DNA of 64,000 nt from Clostridia bacterium (GTDB lineage Bacteria; Bacillota; Clostridia; Saccharofermentanales; Saccharofermentanaceae), in NCBI GenBank assembly GCA_024699245.1, contig JAILPW010000047.1:9960-73959 (forward strand), written 5' to 3'. Shown here one piece after another: positions 46,571-63,830 of the stretch. Both the position numbers and the translations under genes were made by a program. The first letter of the stretch is position 1. Every line of letters begins with the position of its first letter. Under the pieces are notes generated by a model that was not told the origin of the DNA, made no database searches, and saw only the letters and a list, made by a program, of their open reading frames with translations.

Positions 46571-47476
46571 ATGATGACAATTATCGGGGGCTTTCTGATG
46601 GCCCTTGCAGACAGTGTTCCCGGCGTATCAGGCGGAACGATAGCCTTTATCATGGGCTTTTATGACGAATTCATCAACTCCATCTCATTGCTGCTCAAGG
46701 GCAAAAAGGAAGAGCGTAAAAAAGCATTCTTCTTCCTCCTTCGCGTGGGTATCGGCTGGGCAACAGGTATGATCCTTGCGATCCTTATCCTTAATTCCCT
46801 TTTCGAAAAAAACATCTATCTCATCAGTTCGATGTTCCTCGGCTTTGTCCTCGCAGCAATCCCAATCATCGTTATGGAAGAGAAGAAGTGCCTTAAGGGT
46901 AAGTACTATAATCTCGTGTTTACTCTCATCGGTGCGGCACTTGTTGTTGCGATCACGCTCCTCAAAGCCAAGCTCAACAACGGTGAAGGCGGTGAGTTCC
47001 ACCTGACAGTTGCAAGCGGCGTCTACCTTTTTGTCTGCGGAGCTCTTGCGATCTGTGCCATGGTCCTTCCGGGCATATCAGGTTCAACATTGCTTCTTAT
47101 CTTTGGCGTATACACGACGGTAATCGGCGCAGTTCACTCCGTCCTTACCTTTGATCTTAAGGCTCTGCCTATCTGTTTTATCTTCGGATTCGGTGTTATC
47201 GCAGGTGCGGTCGGAATCGTCGGCATCCTCAAAAAGTGCCTTTCAAGATTCAGATCACAGACGATCTACCTTGTAATCGGTCTCATGATCGGTTCTCTTT
47301 ACGCTATCGTCAGAGGTCCGGAATCTCTTGATACTCCTCAGCCGATGATGGATCTGCACACATTCAGCATCATCTTCTTTATCATCGGAATCGCAGTAAT
47401 ATCAGGCCTTCAGTTGCTAAAGGTCGTTATCGAGAAAAAGGGGAAAACTGAGAATAAGAAGATCGAAAAAGTGTAA
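46571..47476 (+). CDS. DUF368 membrane protein
   Basis: MALADSVPGVSGGTIAFIMGFYD and AMVLPGISGS internal repeats. Confidence 0.9.
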   Translation: MMTIIGGFLMALADSVPGVSGGTIAFIMGFYDEFINSISLLLKGKKEERKKAFFFLLRVGIGWATGMILAILILNSLFEKNIYLISSMFLGFVLAAIPIIVMEEKKCLKGKYYNLVFTLIGAALVVAITLLKAKLNNGEGGEFHLTVASGVYLFVCGALAICAMVLPGISGSTLLLIFGVYTTVIGAVHSVLTFDLKALPICFIFGFGVIAGAVGIVGILKKCLSRFRSQTIYLVIGLMIGSLYAIVRGPESLDTPQPMMDLHTFSIIFFIIGIAVISGLQLLKVVIEKKGKTENKKIEKV

Positions 47477-47610
47477 GCACAAAACGTTATACTTTGAAAG
47501 TCTAATTATTTATGCAATCTCACAACATATTCATTATACAACCTTGTGCTTTTTGTGAAAAGTGTGCAAAATGCACAAGGCTTATTTTGCATTTATGGAA
47601 AACATTACAA

Positions 47611-47639
47611 TTGCGTTACAAGGGTAGGGATAATATACT
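47611..47639 (+). promoter_or_regulatory. sigmaA-like promoter of the large ncRNA candidate
   Basis: TTGCGT-17 bp-TATACT; predicted +1 about A47646. Confidence 0.7.
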
Positions 47640-47645
47640 GAAAAT

Positions 47646-48085
47646 AGCTCCAGGGAATACGAGAACACTTAAGTTTTCGAACCACGGTCGCCAACAGATA
47701 GGTTTCCTAGAAGTTGGAAGCGAGCAGCGATTGACGGGATGGGATGCTATCCGCAAGTCGCAGGTTGTAACAGTTTAGTCGTTCGGACATTTGATCCGCG
47801 GTTGTGTGAGAGGTCGCCGCCGACAGGAGAAGTTCGAAGCTACAGACCTAACGGTACATCCTAATCGTGCGAACCGAGTAGCCGGTTTAAGTTTATGACA
47901 GCTTTCGAGTAATCGGGGGCGATAAACAAAGAAGTGAGTAACGACTTATTAAGCGGTGAGAAGGGGTCATTGTTTGGGAGTTACGTTGAAGGCAATGGCA
48001 ATCGGTTAGGCGTTATGGCTGGCAGAGGCTCGAGTAAAGGAATTGTGGTTAATCGGGAAGTAGAGTTGATTGGTTCGCTGGAGCT
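47646..48085 (+). ncRNA. Candidate large structured ncRNA (~440 nt), family not identified
   Basis: 5' AGCTCCAG pairs with 3' CTGGAGCT; many internal and long-range helices; more G-rich than flanks; own promoter and terminator; no credible CDS. Confidence 0.75.
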
Positions 48086-48096
48086 TTTCTATGCAG

Positions 48097-48127
48097 AAAA
48101 ACCGCCGCATCAGACGACGGTTTTTTT
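48097..48127 (+). terminator. Intrinsic terminator of the ncRNA candidate
   Basis: AAAAACCGcCG-catcaga-CGaCGGTTTTTTT. Confidence 0.8.
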
Positions 48128-48215
48128 GTTTTTCAAGAAATGTTGTAATTTTGTATTTTTATTTTTATATTTTGTGTTATAAAATAAATGTGTTATTTCA
48201 TTTTGGAGGTCTTTT

Positions 48216-48782
48216 ATGAAGAGGTTCTTTAAATATCTGTTGACCGTGTTCCTTATCACTGTGTTTGCTGTGGCTATGACATTCGGTGTTTGGGCTCTTA
48301 TCAACAGTTTCACTACACATGCTGATCACGATCTTATTTACGGTACTATTACTTCCTCATCAGCTCCAGTTGCTGTTGAAGACAGAGAGAGGGGACTCTT
48401 CAAGGATAGGTACGTTATCAACTTTGTTCAGACTATTACTGTTTCCTTTAACTACAAGGGACAGACATATTCAAGTACAAGAGACTTTAGCGTTTACAAG
48501 GAAAAGTCTGATGTTCCGCTTTCCACTTCTCACGCTACATATAACAATTCTCCTTACAAGAAGGGAGCTGTTATTCAGATCTATGTAAACAAGAATAACC
48601 CGACTATCTATTCACTTGCAGGTGATGCTGATTCGACAACAGTTGATATCAAGACAGTTATTCCATATGCTGCAGTTATCTACGGTGTAGTATTGATCAT
48701 ATTTACGATCTCTTACATCGCCAGAAGCAGGAAAGAGCGTAAGCAGGAATTCCTTGAGAAGTACATGAACAGCAGGTATTGA
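48216..48782 (+). CDS. Hypothetical membrane-anchored protein (TM at both ends)
   Basis: RBS GGAGG; N- and C-terminal hydrophobic segments flanking a beta-rich domain. Confidence 0.85.
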   Translation: MKRFFKYLLTVFLITVFAVAMTFGVWALINSFTTHADHDLIYGTITSSSAPVAVEDRERGLFKDRYVINFVQTITVSFNYKGQTYSSTRDFSVYKEKSDVPLSTSHATYNNSPYKKGAVIQIYVNKNNPTIYSLAGDADSTTVDIKTVIPYAAVIYGVVLIIFTISYIARSRKERKQEFLEKYMNSRY

Positions 48783-48832: not shown

Positions 48833-48908
48833 TGGTGGAGTATACGGGACTTGAACCCGTGACCCCCACACTGCCAGTGTGATGCGCTCCCAACTGCGCT
48901 AATACCCC
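48833..48908 (-). tRNA. tRNA-Ala(GGC)
   Basis: Cloverleaf, anticodon GGC, G3:U70 pair, encoded CCA. Confidence 0.97.
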
Positions 48909-48988
48909 AAGCAGCATGATTATAGCATGCCGTTTAAGGTATTGAAAAGGCATACGAGCGTGTCCGAAAAAGTAATTTGAATATCTTG

Positions 48989-49017
48989 TTGACAAACATG
49001 AAATGTTCTTTTATAAT
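48989..49017 (+). promoter_or_regulatory. sigmaA promoter of the tRNA Val-Asp-Phe operon
   Basis: TTGACA-17 bp-TATAAT. Confidence 0.9.
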
Positions 49018-49059
49018 CTCTTTGCGCTTGAGAGAGCGCCCCAGTAAAAACAATGGCAT

Positions 49060-49135
49060 GGAAGCTTAGCTCAGCTGGGAGAGCATCTGCCTTACAAGCA
49101 GAGGGTCACAGGTTCGAGCCCTGTAGTTTCCACCA
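49060..49135 (+). tRNA. tRNA-Val(TAC)
   Basis: Cloverleaf, anticodon TAC, encoded CCA. Confidence 0.97.
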
Positions 49136-49139
49136 TAAT

Positions 49140-49216
49140 GGCGCAGTAGTTCAGCTGGTTAGAATGCCAGCCTGTCACGCTGGAGGTCGAGGGTTCGAGC
49201 CCCTTCTGCGTCGCCA
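49140..49216 (+). tRNA. tRNA-Asp(GTC)
   Basis: Cloverleaf, anticodon GTC, encoded CCA. Confidence 0.97.
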
Positions 49217-49250
49217 GTTAACCGGTTCCTTCGGGAACCGGTTACTATTC

Positions 49251-49326
49251 GCCCAGATAGCTCAGTCGGTAGAGCAGGGGACTGAAAATCCCCGTGTCGA
49301 TGGTTCGATTCCGTCTCTGGGCACCA
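49251..49326 (+). tRNA. tRNA-Phe(GAA)
   Basis: Cloverleaf, anticodon GAA, encoded CCA. Confidence 0.97.
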
Positions 49327-62066: not shown

Positions 62067-62095
62067 TTGACTTTTCGAAAAATAACGTGTATAAA
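62067..62095 (+). promoter_or_regulatory. sigmaA promoter of the T-box leader
   Basis: TTGACT-17 bp-TATAAA. Confidence 0.75.
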
Positions 62096-62104
62096 CATTT
62101 TAAA

Positions 62105-62387
62105 CCGTTGATGAAGAGTGAGTAGATCTTGTTAATTCATTCTCAGAGAGTTGCGGATGGTGGAATCGCAACAGTGAACATAAGATCGAATGGACTTCAG
62201 AGGGCGACAGGAAATGCCTTATCGGCAGAGTATGGAAGACGTTAAGACCTTACGTTAATCGGTCAGCATATGATGGTATGCATAAGTGGACGAGACAATA
62301 GTCGAGTCAAGCCGGGTGGCACCGCAGGAATAGAATCTATCTCCTGTCCCAGCAGAAGAAAAAAGCTTGGGACAGGAGTTTTTGTTT
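62105..62387 (+). promoter_or_regulatory. T-box riboswitch, Trp specifier
   Basis: Stem I with AG box (CAGAGAG) and GGTGGAA loop; GAA-TGG specifier (62191-62193); GGGTGGCACCGC (62314-62325); terminator CTCCTGTCCCAGC...GCTTGGGACAGGAG-TTTTT. Confidence 0.93.
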
Positions 62388-62417
62388 GTCCCGAAAAAAT
62401 GAAAGGAGACACAAGTT

Positions 62418-63791
62418 ATGTCAAACAATGAAATCCCTTACAAGATCTATCTTGAGGAAAGCGAGATGCCGAAAGCTTGGTACAACATGAGGGCTGATAT
62501 GAAAAATAAGCCGGCTCCTCTTCTTAATCCGGGCACACTTCAGCCGATGACTGTTGAAGAACTGAGCGTAGTTTTCTGCGAGGAACTTGCTAAGCAGGAA
62601 CTCGATAACGATACAAAGTTCGTAGAGATCCCTGACGAGATCAAGAGCTTCTACAAGATGTATCGTCCGTCCCCTCTCGTAAGAGCTTATTGCCTTGAAG
62701 AGAAGCTCGGAACTCCTGCTCATATCTACTATAAATTCGAAGGCAACAACACAAGCGGAAGCCACAAGCTCAATTCCGCTATCGCTCAGGCTTACTACGC
62801 TAAGAAGCAGGGTCTTAAGGGTGTAACAACTGAGACCGGTGCAGGTCAGTGGGGTACAGCTCTTTCAATGGCTTGTTCTTACTTCGACCTTGACTGTAAG
62901 GTATACATGGTAAAGTGCTCCTACGAGCAGAAGCCTTTCAGACGCGAAGTTATGAGAACTTACGGTGCAAACGTTACTCCTTCTCCCTCCAACACAACAG
63001 AGGTAGGCAGAAAGATACTCGCTGAATATCCCGACACAAACGGCTCTCTGGGCTGTGCTATCTCCGAAGCCGTTGAAGCCGCAGTAAGCAGCGACGGCTA
63101 CAGATACGTTCTCGGCTCGGTACTCTCTCAGGTACTCCTTCACCAGTCGGTAATCGGTCTTGAATCAATGGCAGCTTGCGACAAGTACGGCATCAAGCCC
63201 GACATCATCATCGGCTGTGCAGGCGGCGGTTCAAATCTCGGCGGTCTTATCTCACCTTTCATGGGCAGAAAGCTCAGAGGCGAAGCAGACTACAGATTTA
63301 TCGCTGTTGAACCTGCTTCCTGTCCGTCACTCACAAGAGGTACCTACGCTTACGACTTCTGTGATACAGGTATGATCTGTCCTCTCCAGAAGATGTACAC
63401 CCTCGGCAGCACATTTATGCCCTCGCCCAGCCACGCAGGCGGTCTGAGATACCACGGTATGAGTGCTATCGTATCCGAGCTGTACGATCAGGGTCTTATC
63501 GAGGCAGTATCCGTTGAGCAGAGCTCCGTATTCGAGGCAGCTACACAGTTTGCACGTATCGAAGGTACGCTCCCCGCTCCCGAGAGCAGCCACGCTATCA
63601 GAGTTGCTATCGACGAAGCACTCAAGTGCAAGGAGACAGGCGAAGAAAAGACTATCCTCTTTGGTCTTACAGGTACAGGCTACTTCGATATGTACGCATA
63701 TCAGCAGTTCAACGACGGAACAATGTCCGACTATATCCCCACAGACGAGGAGATAATGAAGTCTATCGACAAGCTTCCCGATGTGAAATAA
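62418..63791 (+). CDS. trpB: TrpB-like PLP enzyme (TrpB2 type)
   Basis: YRPSPL.RA, SGSHKLNSA, TETGAGQWG, GGGSNLGG, HAGGLRYHG, PAPESSHA; 457 aa, TrpB2-sized. Confidence 0.93.
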   Translation: MSNNEIPYKIYLEESEMPKAWYNMRADMKNKPAPLLNPGTLQPMTVEELSVVFCEELAKQELDNDTKFVEIPDEIKSFYKMYRPSPLVRAYCLEEKLGTPAHIYYKFEGNNTSGSHKLNSAIAQAYYAKKQGLKGVTTETGAGQWGTALSMACSYFDLDCKVYMVKCSYEQKPFRREVMRTYGANVTPSPSNTTEVGRKILAEYPDTNGSLGCAISEAVEAAVSSDGYRYVLGSVLSQVLLHQSVIGLESMAACDKYGIKPDIIIGCAGGGSNLGGLISPFMGRKLRGEADYRFIAVEPASCPSLTRGTYAYDFCDTGMICPLQKMYTLGSTFMPSPSHAGGLRYHGMSAIVSELYDQGLIEAVSVEQSSVFEAATQFARIEGTLPAPESSHAIRVAIDEALKCKETGEEKTILFGLTGTGYFDMYAYQQFNDGTMSDYIPTDEEIMKSIDKLPDVK

Positions 63792-63799
63792 TTACAGAT

Positions 63800-63830
63800 A
63801 AGAAAGAGCCCGACTTGTTCGGGCTTTCTT
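63800..63830 (+). terminator. Intrinsic terminator after trpB2
   Basis: AAGAAAGAGCCCGA-cttgt-TCGGGCTTTCTT. Confidence 0.75.

What the first reader, a model, noticed from the sequence alone, without database searches (positions are those of the whole stretch)
47611..48127. Stand-alone ~440-nt ornate ncRNA candidate with its own promoter, paired ends and terminator
Seen in sequence: a promoter TTGCGT-17-TATACT puts +1 at about A47646, exactly where AGCTCCAG begins; this pairs perfectly with CTGGAGCT (48078-48085) just before a terminator. Helices found by eye: CGAGAAC/GTTTTCG (47660-79); AACCA/TGGTT (47680-84 with 48071-75); a TCGC-CAAC-TAGG hairpin (47688-723); CGATTGAC/GTTAATCG (47728-35 with 48048-55); AGGTTGTA/TACAGACCT (47762-69 with 47841-49); AGTCGTT/AACGACT (47777-83 with 47940-46); CCTAATCG/CGGTTAGG (47860-67 with 48003-10); CGAGT-AGCC/GGCT..GCTCG (47875-83 with 48017-32); GTTTAT/ATAAAC enclosing an 8-bp stem capped by a GUAA (GNRA) loop (47901-20). 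Several of these cross each other, implying pseudoknots or alternative folds. The segment is G-rich with many G-U pairs, unlike the AT-rich flanks. It lacks GAGGAAAGUCC (RNase P), tRNA-like ends (tmRNA) and a group II intron domain V, and no RT, IscB or TnpB gene is nearby. Established: large ornate bacterial RNAs (OLE, ROOL, GOLLD) exist in Firmicutes, and ROOL/GOLLD often lie near tRNA genes; a tRNA cluster lies about 750 bp downstream here. Inference: a new or divergent large ncRNA.
Basis: partly seen in the sequence, partly recalled or inferred. Interest (0 to 1): 0.9.

Follow-up and report, generated by a model that had tools for sequence, protein, structure and literature searches.

The report
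Uncatalogued large structured RNA of Clostridia
The stretch is a real stand-alone gene for a 440-base folded non-coding RNA, one member of a conserved RNA family (about 260 to 620 bases) in rumen and gut Clostridia that matches no catalogued RNA family and whose job is still unknown.

Summary
The core observation holds. Window 47646-48085 (+) is a single-copy RNA gene with a promoter, a 5'/3' closing helix and an intrinsic terminator.

- **Conservation in the genus:** a covariance model finds one copy in 93 of 100 genomes of the genus. Contig titles indicate Saccharofermentans.
- **Wider range:** true homologs occur in every other sampled genus of the family, in 13 genera of a second family, and sporadically in other Clostridia families and other classes of the phylum.
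- **Shared signature:** all copies share invariant ends (5' GCUCCAGGGAAU ... GGUUCGCUGGAGC 3'). All 94 have a -10 box 5-9 nt upstream; 74 of 94 have a terminator-like hairpin.
- **Size:** 257-274 nt in the minimal forms, up to 624 nt through helix expansions. The window copy is an intermediate 439-440 nt form.
- **Structure:** covariation is strong. 28 of 72 pairs show compensatory changes, with 0 of 500 shuffles reaching that.
- **Not a known RNA:** no Rfam 15 family matches any form. RNase P, tmRNA and SRP RNAs lie elsewhere in the genome. There is no coding signal.
about half are supported and five are not.
- **Context:** the tRNA neighbourhood is coincidental. The conserved neighbour is a convergent hpt gene, which is absent next to the window copy.
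- **Function:** unknown. I favour a trans-acting RNA that binds a protein or a ligand.

The parts
47562..47578 (+). Conserved palindrome GTGTGCA-AAA-TGCACAA about 70-85 nt upstream of the start. It is a candidate regulator-binding site. It is also a weak hairpin that the scanner scores as terminator-like.
   Evidence: TGCACAA (at most 1 mismatch) lies at -110 to -46 in 73 of 94 homologs against 3 of 94 shuffled controls. Only 8 similar sites exist in the whole genome. Scanner hit.
47611..47639 (+). Promoter: -35 TTGCGT, 17-nt spacer, -10 TATACT
   Evidence: Sequence. All 94 homologs have a TAnnnT box 5-9 nt before the conserved 5' end and a TTG at -35. More distant homologs carry TTGACA-17-TATAAT.
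47646..48085 (+). Structured ncRNA body, 439-440 nt, from the inferred +1 (A47646) to the end of the closing helix
   Evidence: Single copy in the genome. Homologs in 93 of 100 genomes of the genus and beyond. Covariation. No coding signal.
47646..47658 (+). P1 5' strand, AGCUCCAG-G-GAAU, nearly invariant
   Evidence: Pairs with 48073-48085. Compensatory changes at four P1 positions across the family.
47660..47679 (+). P2 hairpin, CGAGAAC/GUUUUCG
   Evidence: A hairpin of different sequence sits at the same place in other clades, for example GAAUAC/GUAUUC changing to GAAUGC/GCAUUC.
47691..47717 (+). P3 hairpin, CCAAC...GUUGG, after the conserved GYCGCC. This is the minimal version of a stem that carries about 150 extra nt in most Saccharofermentans.
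   Evidence: CCAAC/GUUGG, CCGAC/GUCGG and CCGAU/AUCGG in close relatives. Four of 6 pairs covary across families.
47727..47761 (+). P4 two-part hairpin: GCGAUU / internal loop GACGG / inner stem / ACA / AAGUCGC. It is the best conserved element of the family.
   Evidence: Eight of 11 pairs have compensatory changes in 68 sequences. Seven of 10 across families.
47764..47781 (+). 5' strand of the long-range helix H5/H6 (GUUGUAAC...UCG), pairing with 48003-48019
   Evidence: All three H6 pairs show double changes.
47783..47837 (+). Nested hairpins H7/H8 (UCGGA... GAGAGGUC ...UUCGA)
   Evidence: Eight of 19 pairs have compensatory changes. Coordinates.
47869..47885 (+). Invariant block GCGAACCGAGUAGCCGG
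   Evidence: Invariant in 68 sequences. ACCGAGUA recurs in the minimal forms.
47891..47927 (+). Hairpin GUUUAU/AUAAAC enclosing an 8-bp stem with a GUAA loop
   Evidence: GUUCAU/AUGAAC in L084. GUUUAC/GUAAAC and GCUUAC/GUAAGC in the long forms.
48003..48019 (+). 3' strand of the long-range helix H5/H6
48073..48085 (+). P1 3' strand, GUUC-G-CUGGAGCU, within the invariant GGUUCGYUGGAGC
48097..48127 (+). Intrinsic, probably bidirectional terminator: AAAAACCG...CGGUUUUUUU
   Evidence: 74 of 94 homologs have a hairpin plus U-run within 90 nt.

Best explanation
Window 47646-48085 is an independently transcribed gene for a highly structured non-coding RNA. It belongs to an RNA family that is not in Rfam 15.

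**Anatomy.** The family has a fixed core:
- a sequence-invariant closing helix P1 with an internal G/G mismatch;
- hairpins P2, P3 and P4;
- short invariant joining strands (GYCGCC, GGAAAGCGA, ACCGAGUA, AAAGGG, GGUUCG).

It also has peripheral helices that expand and contract. These take the RNA from about 260 nt in the minimal forms to 440 nt here and about 600 nt in most Saccharofermentans.

**Inheritance.** It is inherited vertically. It is usually single copy, keeps the same neighbourhood, and is near-universal in two families.

**Most likely mode of action (inferred).** It acts in trans as a folded RNA whose conserved core is a binding platform for a protein partner or a small ligand, as OLE, SRP or RNase P RNAs do. 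It is less likely to act by base-pairing with mRNAs.

**Shown versus inferred.** Shown here: gene boundaries by conservation, secondary structure by covariation, absence of coding signal, absence of a match to known families, and taxonomic range. Inferred: transcription from the predicted promoter, trans action, and the existence of a partner.
For: - **Copy number:** one copy in the genome.
- **Range in the genus:** model R1 finds it in 93 of 100 genomes of the genus.
- **Range in the order:** model R3 finds it in 43 of 43 genomes of the other genera of the family, in 42 genomes in 13 genera of a second family, and in 23 of 51 genera of the order.
- **Range beyond the order:** homologs with the same termini occur in three further families of the class and in three genomes of other classes.
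- **Transcription signals:** 94 of 94 have a -10 and a -35 at a fixed distance from the conserved 5' end; 74 of 94 have a terminator.
- **Covariation in 68 sequences:** 97.9% of cells are paired against 91.4% in shuffles. 28 pairs and 370 cells show double changes against 17.5 and 124. No shuffle of 500 reached this, and the slid controls gave 19-38 cells.
- **Covariation across families:** 15 of 27 pairs show double changes, with 0 of 500 shuffles reaching this.
- **Core plus expansions:** seen.
- **No Rfam match for any form:**
- **Other stable RNAs lie elsewhere:** RNase P, tmRNA and SRP RNA.
- **No coding signal:** no codon periodicity, gap lengths are not multiples of three, and no Pfam hit.
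- **Not a leader:** a terminator follows every copy, and the downstream gene is usually convergent.
Against:
- No partner protein or ligand is identified.
- The only conserved neighbour (hpt) is on the other strand and is missing next to the window copy.
- The 3' half of the minimal forms aligns poorly and has no consensus structure yet.
- The window's own sequence fits several consensus helices of the long forms imperfectly.
- Absence from Rfam does not prove absence from the literature.
- The model searches used strict filters on samples of genomes, so the distribution figures are lower bounds.
Confidence: 0.6

Rival explanations
1. It is a cis- or antisense-acting device for the convergent hpt operon. 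The folded RNA, perhaps sensing a purine-related ligand, would set how much transcription reads through its terminator into hpt as antisense RNA, or would collide with hpt transcription.
For: A hypoxanthine phosphoribosyltransferase gene (TIGR01203, 163.8 bits against a cut-off of 150) lies convergent and immediately downstream in 61 of 88 loci. These include other families of the class, and one copy from another class of the phylum appears to be followed by the 3' end of such a gene (read by eye). The two genes share one terminator region. The compact tertiary-looking core, with GNRA-capped P4 in the minimal forms, resembles an aptamer.
Against: The window copy and about 27 other loci have no hpt downstream, yet they keep the RNA intact. 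Terminators are strong, and P1 does not overlap them in any consistent way. Tandem and unlinked extra copies exist.
Confidence: 0.12
2. It is the lineage's version of 6S RNA, or another RNA that sequesters RNA polymerase. 6S would be undetected elsewhere because it has diverged into this form.
For: The Rfam 6S model finds nothing in the own genome, which is 94% complete. The RNA has paired ends, a promoter in all 94 copies (a strong TTGACA-17-TATAAT in the distant homologs), one to a few copies per genome, and is near-universal in two families.
Against: 6S is a rod with a central bubble and little sequence conservation. Here the 5' half forms local hairpins P3 and P4 with strong covariation, and many single-stranded blocks are invariant. 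Sizes of 260-620 nt exceed the length of the 187-position 6S model. The 6S model gives no score at this locus even at E<=10. That model also misses 9 of 14 control genomes, so its silence elsewhere is weak evidence.
Confidence: 0.07
3. It is a very divergent member of an already known large RNA class (ROOL, GOLLD, OLE, raiA, T-large or HEARO) that the Rfam models fail to reach.
For: Its size range, rumen origin and ornate multi-helix build resemble ROOL and OLE. The window copy lies 750 nt from tRNA genes.
Against: No hit at E<=10 on the locus with lax filters, on a long form, or on 27 further homolog loci at E<=0.1 or E<=1. tRNA adjacency is not conserved. No viral copy was seen. Vertical single-copy inheritance differs from the patchy distribution I recall for ROOL and GOLLD (from memory, not tested here).
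Confidence: 0.06
4. It is not a functional RNA. It would be a conserved intergenic spacer, a decayed protein gene or a small-peptide gene.
For: Stop-free stretches of up to 192 codons occur in the purine-rich sequence. ORFs of 88 and 82 aa overlap the locus.
Against: No third-position periodicity. Gap runs are 1706, 969 and 288 for lengths of 1, 2 and 0 modulo 3. RNA lengths are spread evenly modulo 3. No Pfam hit. Compensatory base-pair changes are the dominant pattern.
Confidence: 0.02

Closest known systems
OLE RNA (Rfam RF01071)
   Same: A large (about 600 nt) multi-helix RNA of anaerobic Firmicutes. From my own knowledge, it is chromosomal, single copy, vertically inherited within lineages, has many invariant nucleotides and works as an RNA-protein complex.
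   Different: No sequence or structure match. The minimal form here is only about 260 nt. The conserved neighbour is hpt rather than the OLE-associated protein genes. No partner is known.
ROOL RNA (rumen-originating, ornate, large)
   Same: Found in rumen Firmicutes, about 580 nt in its long forms, stand-alone with a terminator. The window copy happens to lie near tRNA genes.
   Different: No model match. tRNA adjacency is not conserved. No viral copies were found. It is near-universal and syntenic in two families, unlike the patchy, often prophage-borne distribution I recall for ROOL. Oligomer formation (Kretsch et al. 2025, PMC12286853) was not testable here.
RNase P, SRP and tmRNA (housekeeping RNAs)
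   Same: A conserved core with lineage-specific helix expansions, paired termini, own promoter and terminator, and vertical inheritance.
   Different: All three are present elsewhere in the same genome. This RNA is confined mainly to a few Clostridia lineages.
raiA motif RNA
   Same: A stand-alone, highly structured RNA of a few hundred nucleotides in Firmicutes, with unknown biochemical function and a characteristic gene neighbour (from my own knowledge).
   Different: No Rfam match. The neighbour is hpt rather than raiA/hpf.

Membership tests
ROOL / GOLLD / OLE / HEARO / raiA and all other Rfam 15 families | Significant score against the family's covariance model | tested here: not met
   cmscan against 4227 families. 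The window gave only 4 tRNAs at gathering score. The locus at E<=10 gave only terminator-like noise. Twelve long-form loci gave nothing at E<=0.1. L014 gave nothing relevant at E<=10. Fifteen minimal or distant loci gave nothing relevant at E<=1.
ROOL / GOLLD | Frequent location in prophages or next to tRNA genes, with a patchy distribution | tested here: not met
   tRNA adjacency occurs only in the window. The RNA is near-universal in two families.
ROOL / GOLLD / OLE | Homo-oligomeric assembly | not testable with these tools
   Needs SEC-MALS, native gels or cryo-EM.
RNase P RNA | It is the genome's match to RF00010 or RF00011 | tested here: not met
   The type A RNase P RNA is on contig C42 at 257 bits. 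Nothing at this locus.
tmRNA | tRNA-like ends plus a tag reading frame | tested here: not met
   ARAGORN finds one tmRNA elsewhere with tag ANKTQLVAA and none in the window.
SRP RNA | Match to the bacterial SRP models | tested here: not met
   The large SRP RNA is on contig C47 at 101.9 bits.
6S RNA | Match to RF00013 | tested here: not met
   No 6S score at the locus at E<=10.
6S RNA | Rod-like fold in which the 5' half pairs with the 3' half around a central bubble | tested here: not met
   The 5' half forms the local hairpins P3 and P4, both supported by covariation.
6S RNA | A separate canonical 6S gene exists elsewhere in the genome, which would exclude this locus as the 6S | tested here: inconclusive
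   RF00013 finds none in the own genome, but the same model misses 9 of 14 control genomes.
Riboswitch or cis-regulatory leader | Lies in the 5' UTR of a co-oriented gene, with an expression platform overlapping the aptamer | tested here: not met
   Most copies (74 of 94) are followed by a terminator-like hairpin. The next gene is convergent in 61 of 88 loci and varies in the rest.
Transposon or nuclease guide RNAs (omega RNA / HEARO) | Adjacent IscB/TnpB/RT gene and multi-copy mobile context | tested here: not met
   The neighbours are a VCA0040-like membrane protein and a DUF3592 protein. The locus is single copy and syntenic.

The most novel reading that the evidence does not exclude
This is a previously undescribed class of large structured RNA. 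It is ancient within Clostridia-type Firmicutes. It has a 260-nt tertiary core, including GNRA-capped P4 and a CCUAAG-like element near P1, that has been elaborated to 600 nt in rumen Saccharofermentans. It would work as a ribonucleoprotein or ligand-sensing RNA tied to purine-nucleotide physiology, given the class-wide linkage to hpt and the conserved regulator-like site upstream. If so, it is a new addition to the short list of large bacterial RNAs of unknown biochemistry.
Probability: 0.5. Interest if true: 0.85.

Novelty: categorically new. Interest (0 to 1): 0.75.

Why it matters
Large, strongly conserved bacterial RNAs with complex folds are rare. They have repeatedly turned out to be ribozymes, ribonucleoprotein machines or self-assembling particles; RNase P, OLE, ROOL and GOLLD are examples.

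This family offers three things.
- **A natural size series** (260, 440 and 600 nt) that marks the core and the dispensable parts.
- **Abundant covariation**, which will help structure modelling.
- **Access to experiments.** Three contig titles carry strain designations without the 'MAG' tag (Ruminococcaceae bacterium AB4001 and YAD3003, Clostridiales bacterium Firm_14). I take AB4001 and YAD3003 to be cultured isolates.

It is near-universal in two families of fibre-degrading rumen and gut bacteria, so it probably serves a basic cellular function there. The conserved pairing with hpt and the upstream palindrome give testable leads. If it is already described outside Rfam, the finding reduces to a good annotation of a missing family.

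Tried and rejected
- **Pairwise column covariation:** it was swamped by clade signal. Helix-level stacking and the controlled counts were used instead.
- **Terminus-to-terminus pattern search in genomes:** variable gaps are limited to 30 nt. One call failed and one search was wasted.
- **Viral scans:** a 14-mer and a P4 pattern gave only chance hits, none with both termini.
- **Literature:** full-text searches for the invariant sequence blocks and for Saccharofermentans ncRNA found nothing relevant.
- **Earlier notes of this scan:** nothing on this RNA.
- **Regulon of the upstream palindrome:** only 8 sites in the genome against 4 for a control pattern, and no informative neighbours.
- **MAFFT alignment of the 5' domain (A1):** it mis-aligned the window's minimal P3 against the expanded P3 of the long forms. 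This was corrected by inspection and by alignment A3.
- **Identities considered and rejected:** RNase P, tmRNA, SRP, a tRNA-like end (GGUUCGC is not a T-arm), a protein-coding gene, and a leader of the downstream DUF3592 gene.

Full report
**The locus.** Window 47477-48215 is a 739-bp gap between a VCA0040-like membrane protein gene (46571-47476) and a DUF3592 gene (48216-48782). The quoted sequences are all at the stated coordinates.
- TTGCGT (47611-16), a 17-nt spacer and TATACT (47634-39) precede A47646 by 6 nt.
- AGCTCCAG (47646-53) is complementary to CTGGAGCT (48078-85).
- An A-tract/hairpin/U-tract terminator follows at 48097-48127.
- The body is 32% G against 16% G in the flanks.
- The minimum free energy is -158.5 kcal/mol, z = -2.99 against dinucleotide shuffles.
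- The simple promoter scanner does not call the weak -35, so the promoter rests on the comparative evidence below.

**Known families excluded.**
- Rfam 15 at gathering score finds only four tRNAs in the 64-kb window.
- With lax filters and E<=10 the locus gives only terminator-like noise.
- The genome's type A RNase P RNA is on contig C42 at 257 bits.
- Its tmRNA is elsewhere.
- Its large SRP RNA is on C47.
- The 6S model finds nothing in this genome. That model also misses 9 of 14 control genomes.

**Conservation in the genus.**
- The locus is single copy.
- BLASTN finds one copy in 32 of 36 genomes of the same genus.
- A scan of species-representative genomes with an invariant 19-mer returned 86 loci. 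Sixty-four of them gave full-length RNAs.
- All the full-length copies come from rumen, omasum or faecal Clostridia labelled Saccharofermentans, Clostridiales bacterium RGIG..., Ruminococcaceae bacterium RUG..., AB4001 or YAD3003, or Mageeibacillus sp. UBA.
- Sixty-eight unique full-length RNAs begin AGCUCCARGGAAU and end GGUUCGYUGGAGC. Their lengths are 437-624 nt.
- The window belongs to a short class (437-449 nt). Most species carry 540-624 nt.

**Wider family.** Model R1 (core 5' half) found one copy in 93 of 100 genomes of the genus. It also gave weak hits in sister genera.

Fetching those weak hits showed true homologs:
- They have the same termini, strong TTGACA-17-TATAAT promoters and terminators.
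- Their sizes are 553-610 nt in two genera, 427 nt in one, and only 257-274 nt in others and in a second family.

A full-length model of the minimal form (R3) then gave this range:

| Sample | Result |
|---|---|
| Other genera of the family | 43 of 43 genomes |
| Second family of the order | 42 genomes in 13 genera, some with 2-4 or tandem copies |
| Two remaining families of the order | one weak hit each |
| Whole order | 23 of 51 genera |
| Class-wide sample | three further families (L171, L172, L301-L303) |
| Phylum-wide sample | three genomes of other classes, 263-327 nt |

None of these forms matches any Rfam family. The searches used strict filters on sampled genomes, so the counts are lower bounds.

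**Transcription unit.** All 94 unique homologs have a TAnnnT box ending 5-9 nt before the conserved first base and a TTG at the -35 position. Seventy-four have a stable hairpin plus U-run within 90 nt after the 3' end. The conserved 5' end is therefore most simply the transcription start.

**Structure.**
- RNAalifold on the 68 sequences predicts 72 pairs, 28 of them with compensatory double changes.
- The controlled count gives 97.9% of cells paired against 91.4% in shuffles.
- It gives 370 cells with double changes against 124 in shuffles and 19-38 when partners are slid. No shuffle of 500 reached the observed values.
- Well supported helices, with window coordinates:
  - P1: 47646-58 with 48073-85.
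  - P4: 47727-61.
  - H5/H6: 47764-81 with 48003-19.
  - H7/H8: 47783-837.
  - The GUUUAU/AUAAAC hairpin: 47891-927.
- Across 23 sequences from different genera, families and classes, P1, P3 and P4 keep pairing through 15 of 27 doubly changed pairs, with 0 of 500 shuffles reaching this.
- P1 examples are AGCUCCG/CGGAGC, GACUCC/GGAGU and GCUCUAG/CUAGAGC.
- P3 is a short hairpin in the minimal forms and in the window. In most Saccharofermentans it carries about 150 extra nucleotides.
- The 3' half of the minimal forms has conserved blocks (ACCGAGUA, UUCGC, AAAGGG) but no consensus fold yet.
- In the minimal forms P4 is capped by GAAA, GUAA or GCAA loops.

- Supported: P1, CGAGAAC/GTTTTCG, the CCAAC/GTTGG hairpin, and the GTTTAT/ATAAAC stem with its GUAA-capped inner stem.
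- CGAGT/GCTCG is pairable in all 68 sequences but is invariant, so it is undecided.
- AACCA/TGGTT is not conserved.
- CGATTGAC/GTTAATCG conflicts with the covarying P4.
- AGGTTGTA/TACAGACCT, AGTCGTT/AACGACT and CCTAATCG/CGGTTAGG conflict with the covarying H5/H6 helix.

**Not coding.**
- Variability shows no three-base periodicity.
- Gap runs are overwhelmingly not multiples of three (1706, 969 and 288 for lengths 1, 2 and 0 modulo 3).
- RNA lengths are spread evenly modulo 3.
- The overlapping ORFs have no Pfam match.

**Context.**
- The tRNA genes 750 nt downstream are not a conserved neighbour.
- In 61 of 88 loci the next gene is a convergent hypoxanthine phosphoribosyltransferase gene (TIGR01203, 163.8 bits). 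This includes loci from other families of the class. One copy from another class of the phylum (L308) also appears to be followed by the 3' end of such a gene (read by eye). A cytidylate-kinase-like gene often follows.
- The window clade has lost this arrangement. The only hpt-like gene of the genome is on contig C5 at 38% identity.
- A palindrome TTGTGCA-N3-TGCACAA lies about 70-85 nt upstream of the start. TGCACAA occurs there in 73 of 94 homologs against 3 of 94 shuffled controls.

**Interpretation.** The evidence establishes a vertically inherited, independently transcribed, highly structured RNA with an invariant core and expandable periphery. This architecture is typical of RNAs that work through tertiary structure, as binding platforms or catalysts, rather than through antisense pairing. 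I therefore favour a trans-acting RNA that binds a protein or a ligand.

The rivals, in order of weight:
1. An hpt-directed convergent or antisense device, weakened by copies without hpt.
2. A lineage-specific 6S analogue, weakened by the non-rod fold.
3. A very divergent known large RNA, with no model support.

Full-text searches found no description of the family, but most subscription literature and motif repositories were not searchable. I put the chance that it has been described elsewhere at roughly one in four.

**Verdict.** The interpretation as a new large ncRNA is supported and extended: it is a family spanning several Clostridia lineages, with the window copy as a mid-sized variant.

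Noticed in passing
window 47562-47578, and the same position in homolog loci: A palindrome TTGTGCA-N3-TGCACAA is conserved about 70-85 nt upstream of the RNA start across genera and families (73 of 94 against 3 of 94 shuffled). It looks like a dimeric regulator site. Only 8 similar sites exist in the whole genome, including a perfect one at G000 C42:164917.
   Followed up: partly
homolog loci L139-L152, L158, L164 and others; not in the window: A convergent hpt gene (HGPRTase equivalog) directly follows the RNA in 61 of 88 loci, including other families of the class, and is often preceded by a gene for a cytidylate-kinase-like protein with a weak endonuclease-I-like tail. The window's clade lacks this hpt paralog. 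The only hpt-like gene in the genome is on C5 at 38% identity.
   Followed up: partly
G059:C1:613508-614146; G299:C1:1928194-1928795; G268:C368:13939-14745; G041:C46:4800-5635; G038:C1:452295-455140: In the second family the RNA occurs in 2-4 copies per genome. These are often in tandem, 90-300 nt apart, and the paralogs have diverged (for example GGGAUU/GAUUCG termini in G038).
   Followed up: no
L039 and L047 (both from MAG RGIG9768); G186 (two hits): One MAG very close to the window's genome carries two copies that are 82% identical, on different contigs. The window's own assembly has one copy. This is either a mixed bin or a recent duplication.
   Followed up: partly
whole genome G000: No 6S RNA is found with Rfam RF00013 in the 94%-complete genome. 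RNase P (type A), tmRNA and large SRP RNA are all detected.
   Followed up: partly
window 62067-63830: An earlier first-stage note describes a Trp T-box here. The Rfam scan of the whole window at gathering score reported only four tRNAs and no T-box.
   Followed up: no
window 48833-49326: tRNA-Ala(GGC) lies on the minus strand, followed by a plus-strand Val(TAC)-Asp(GTC)-Phe(GAA) cluster with its own promoter-like region and a hairpin between Asp and Phe.
   Followed up: no
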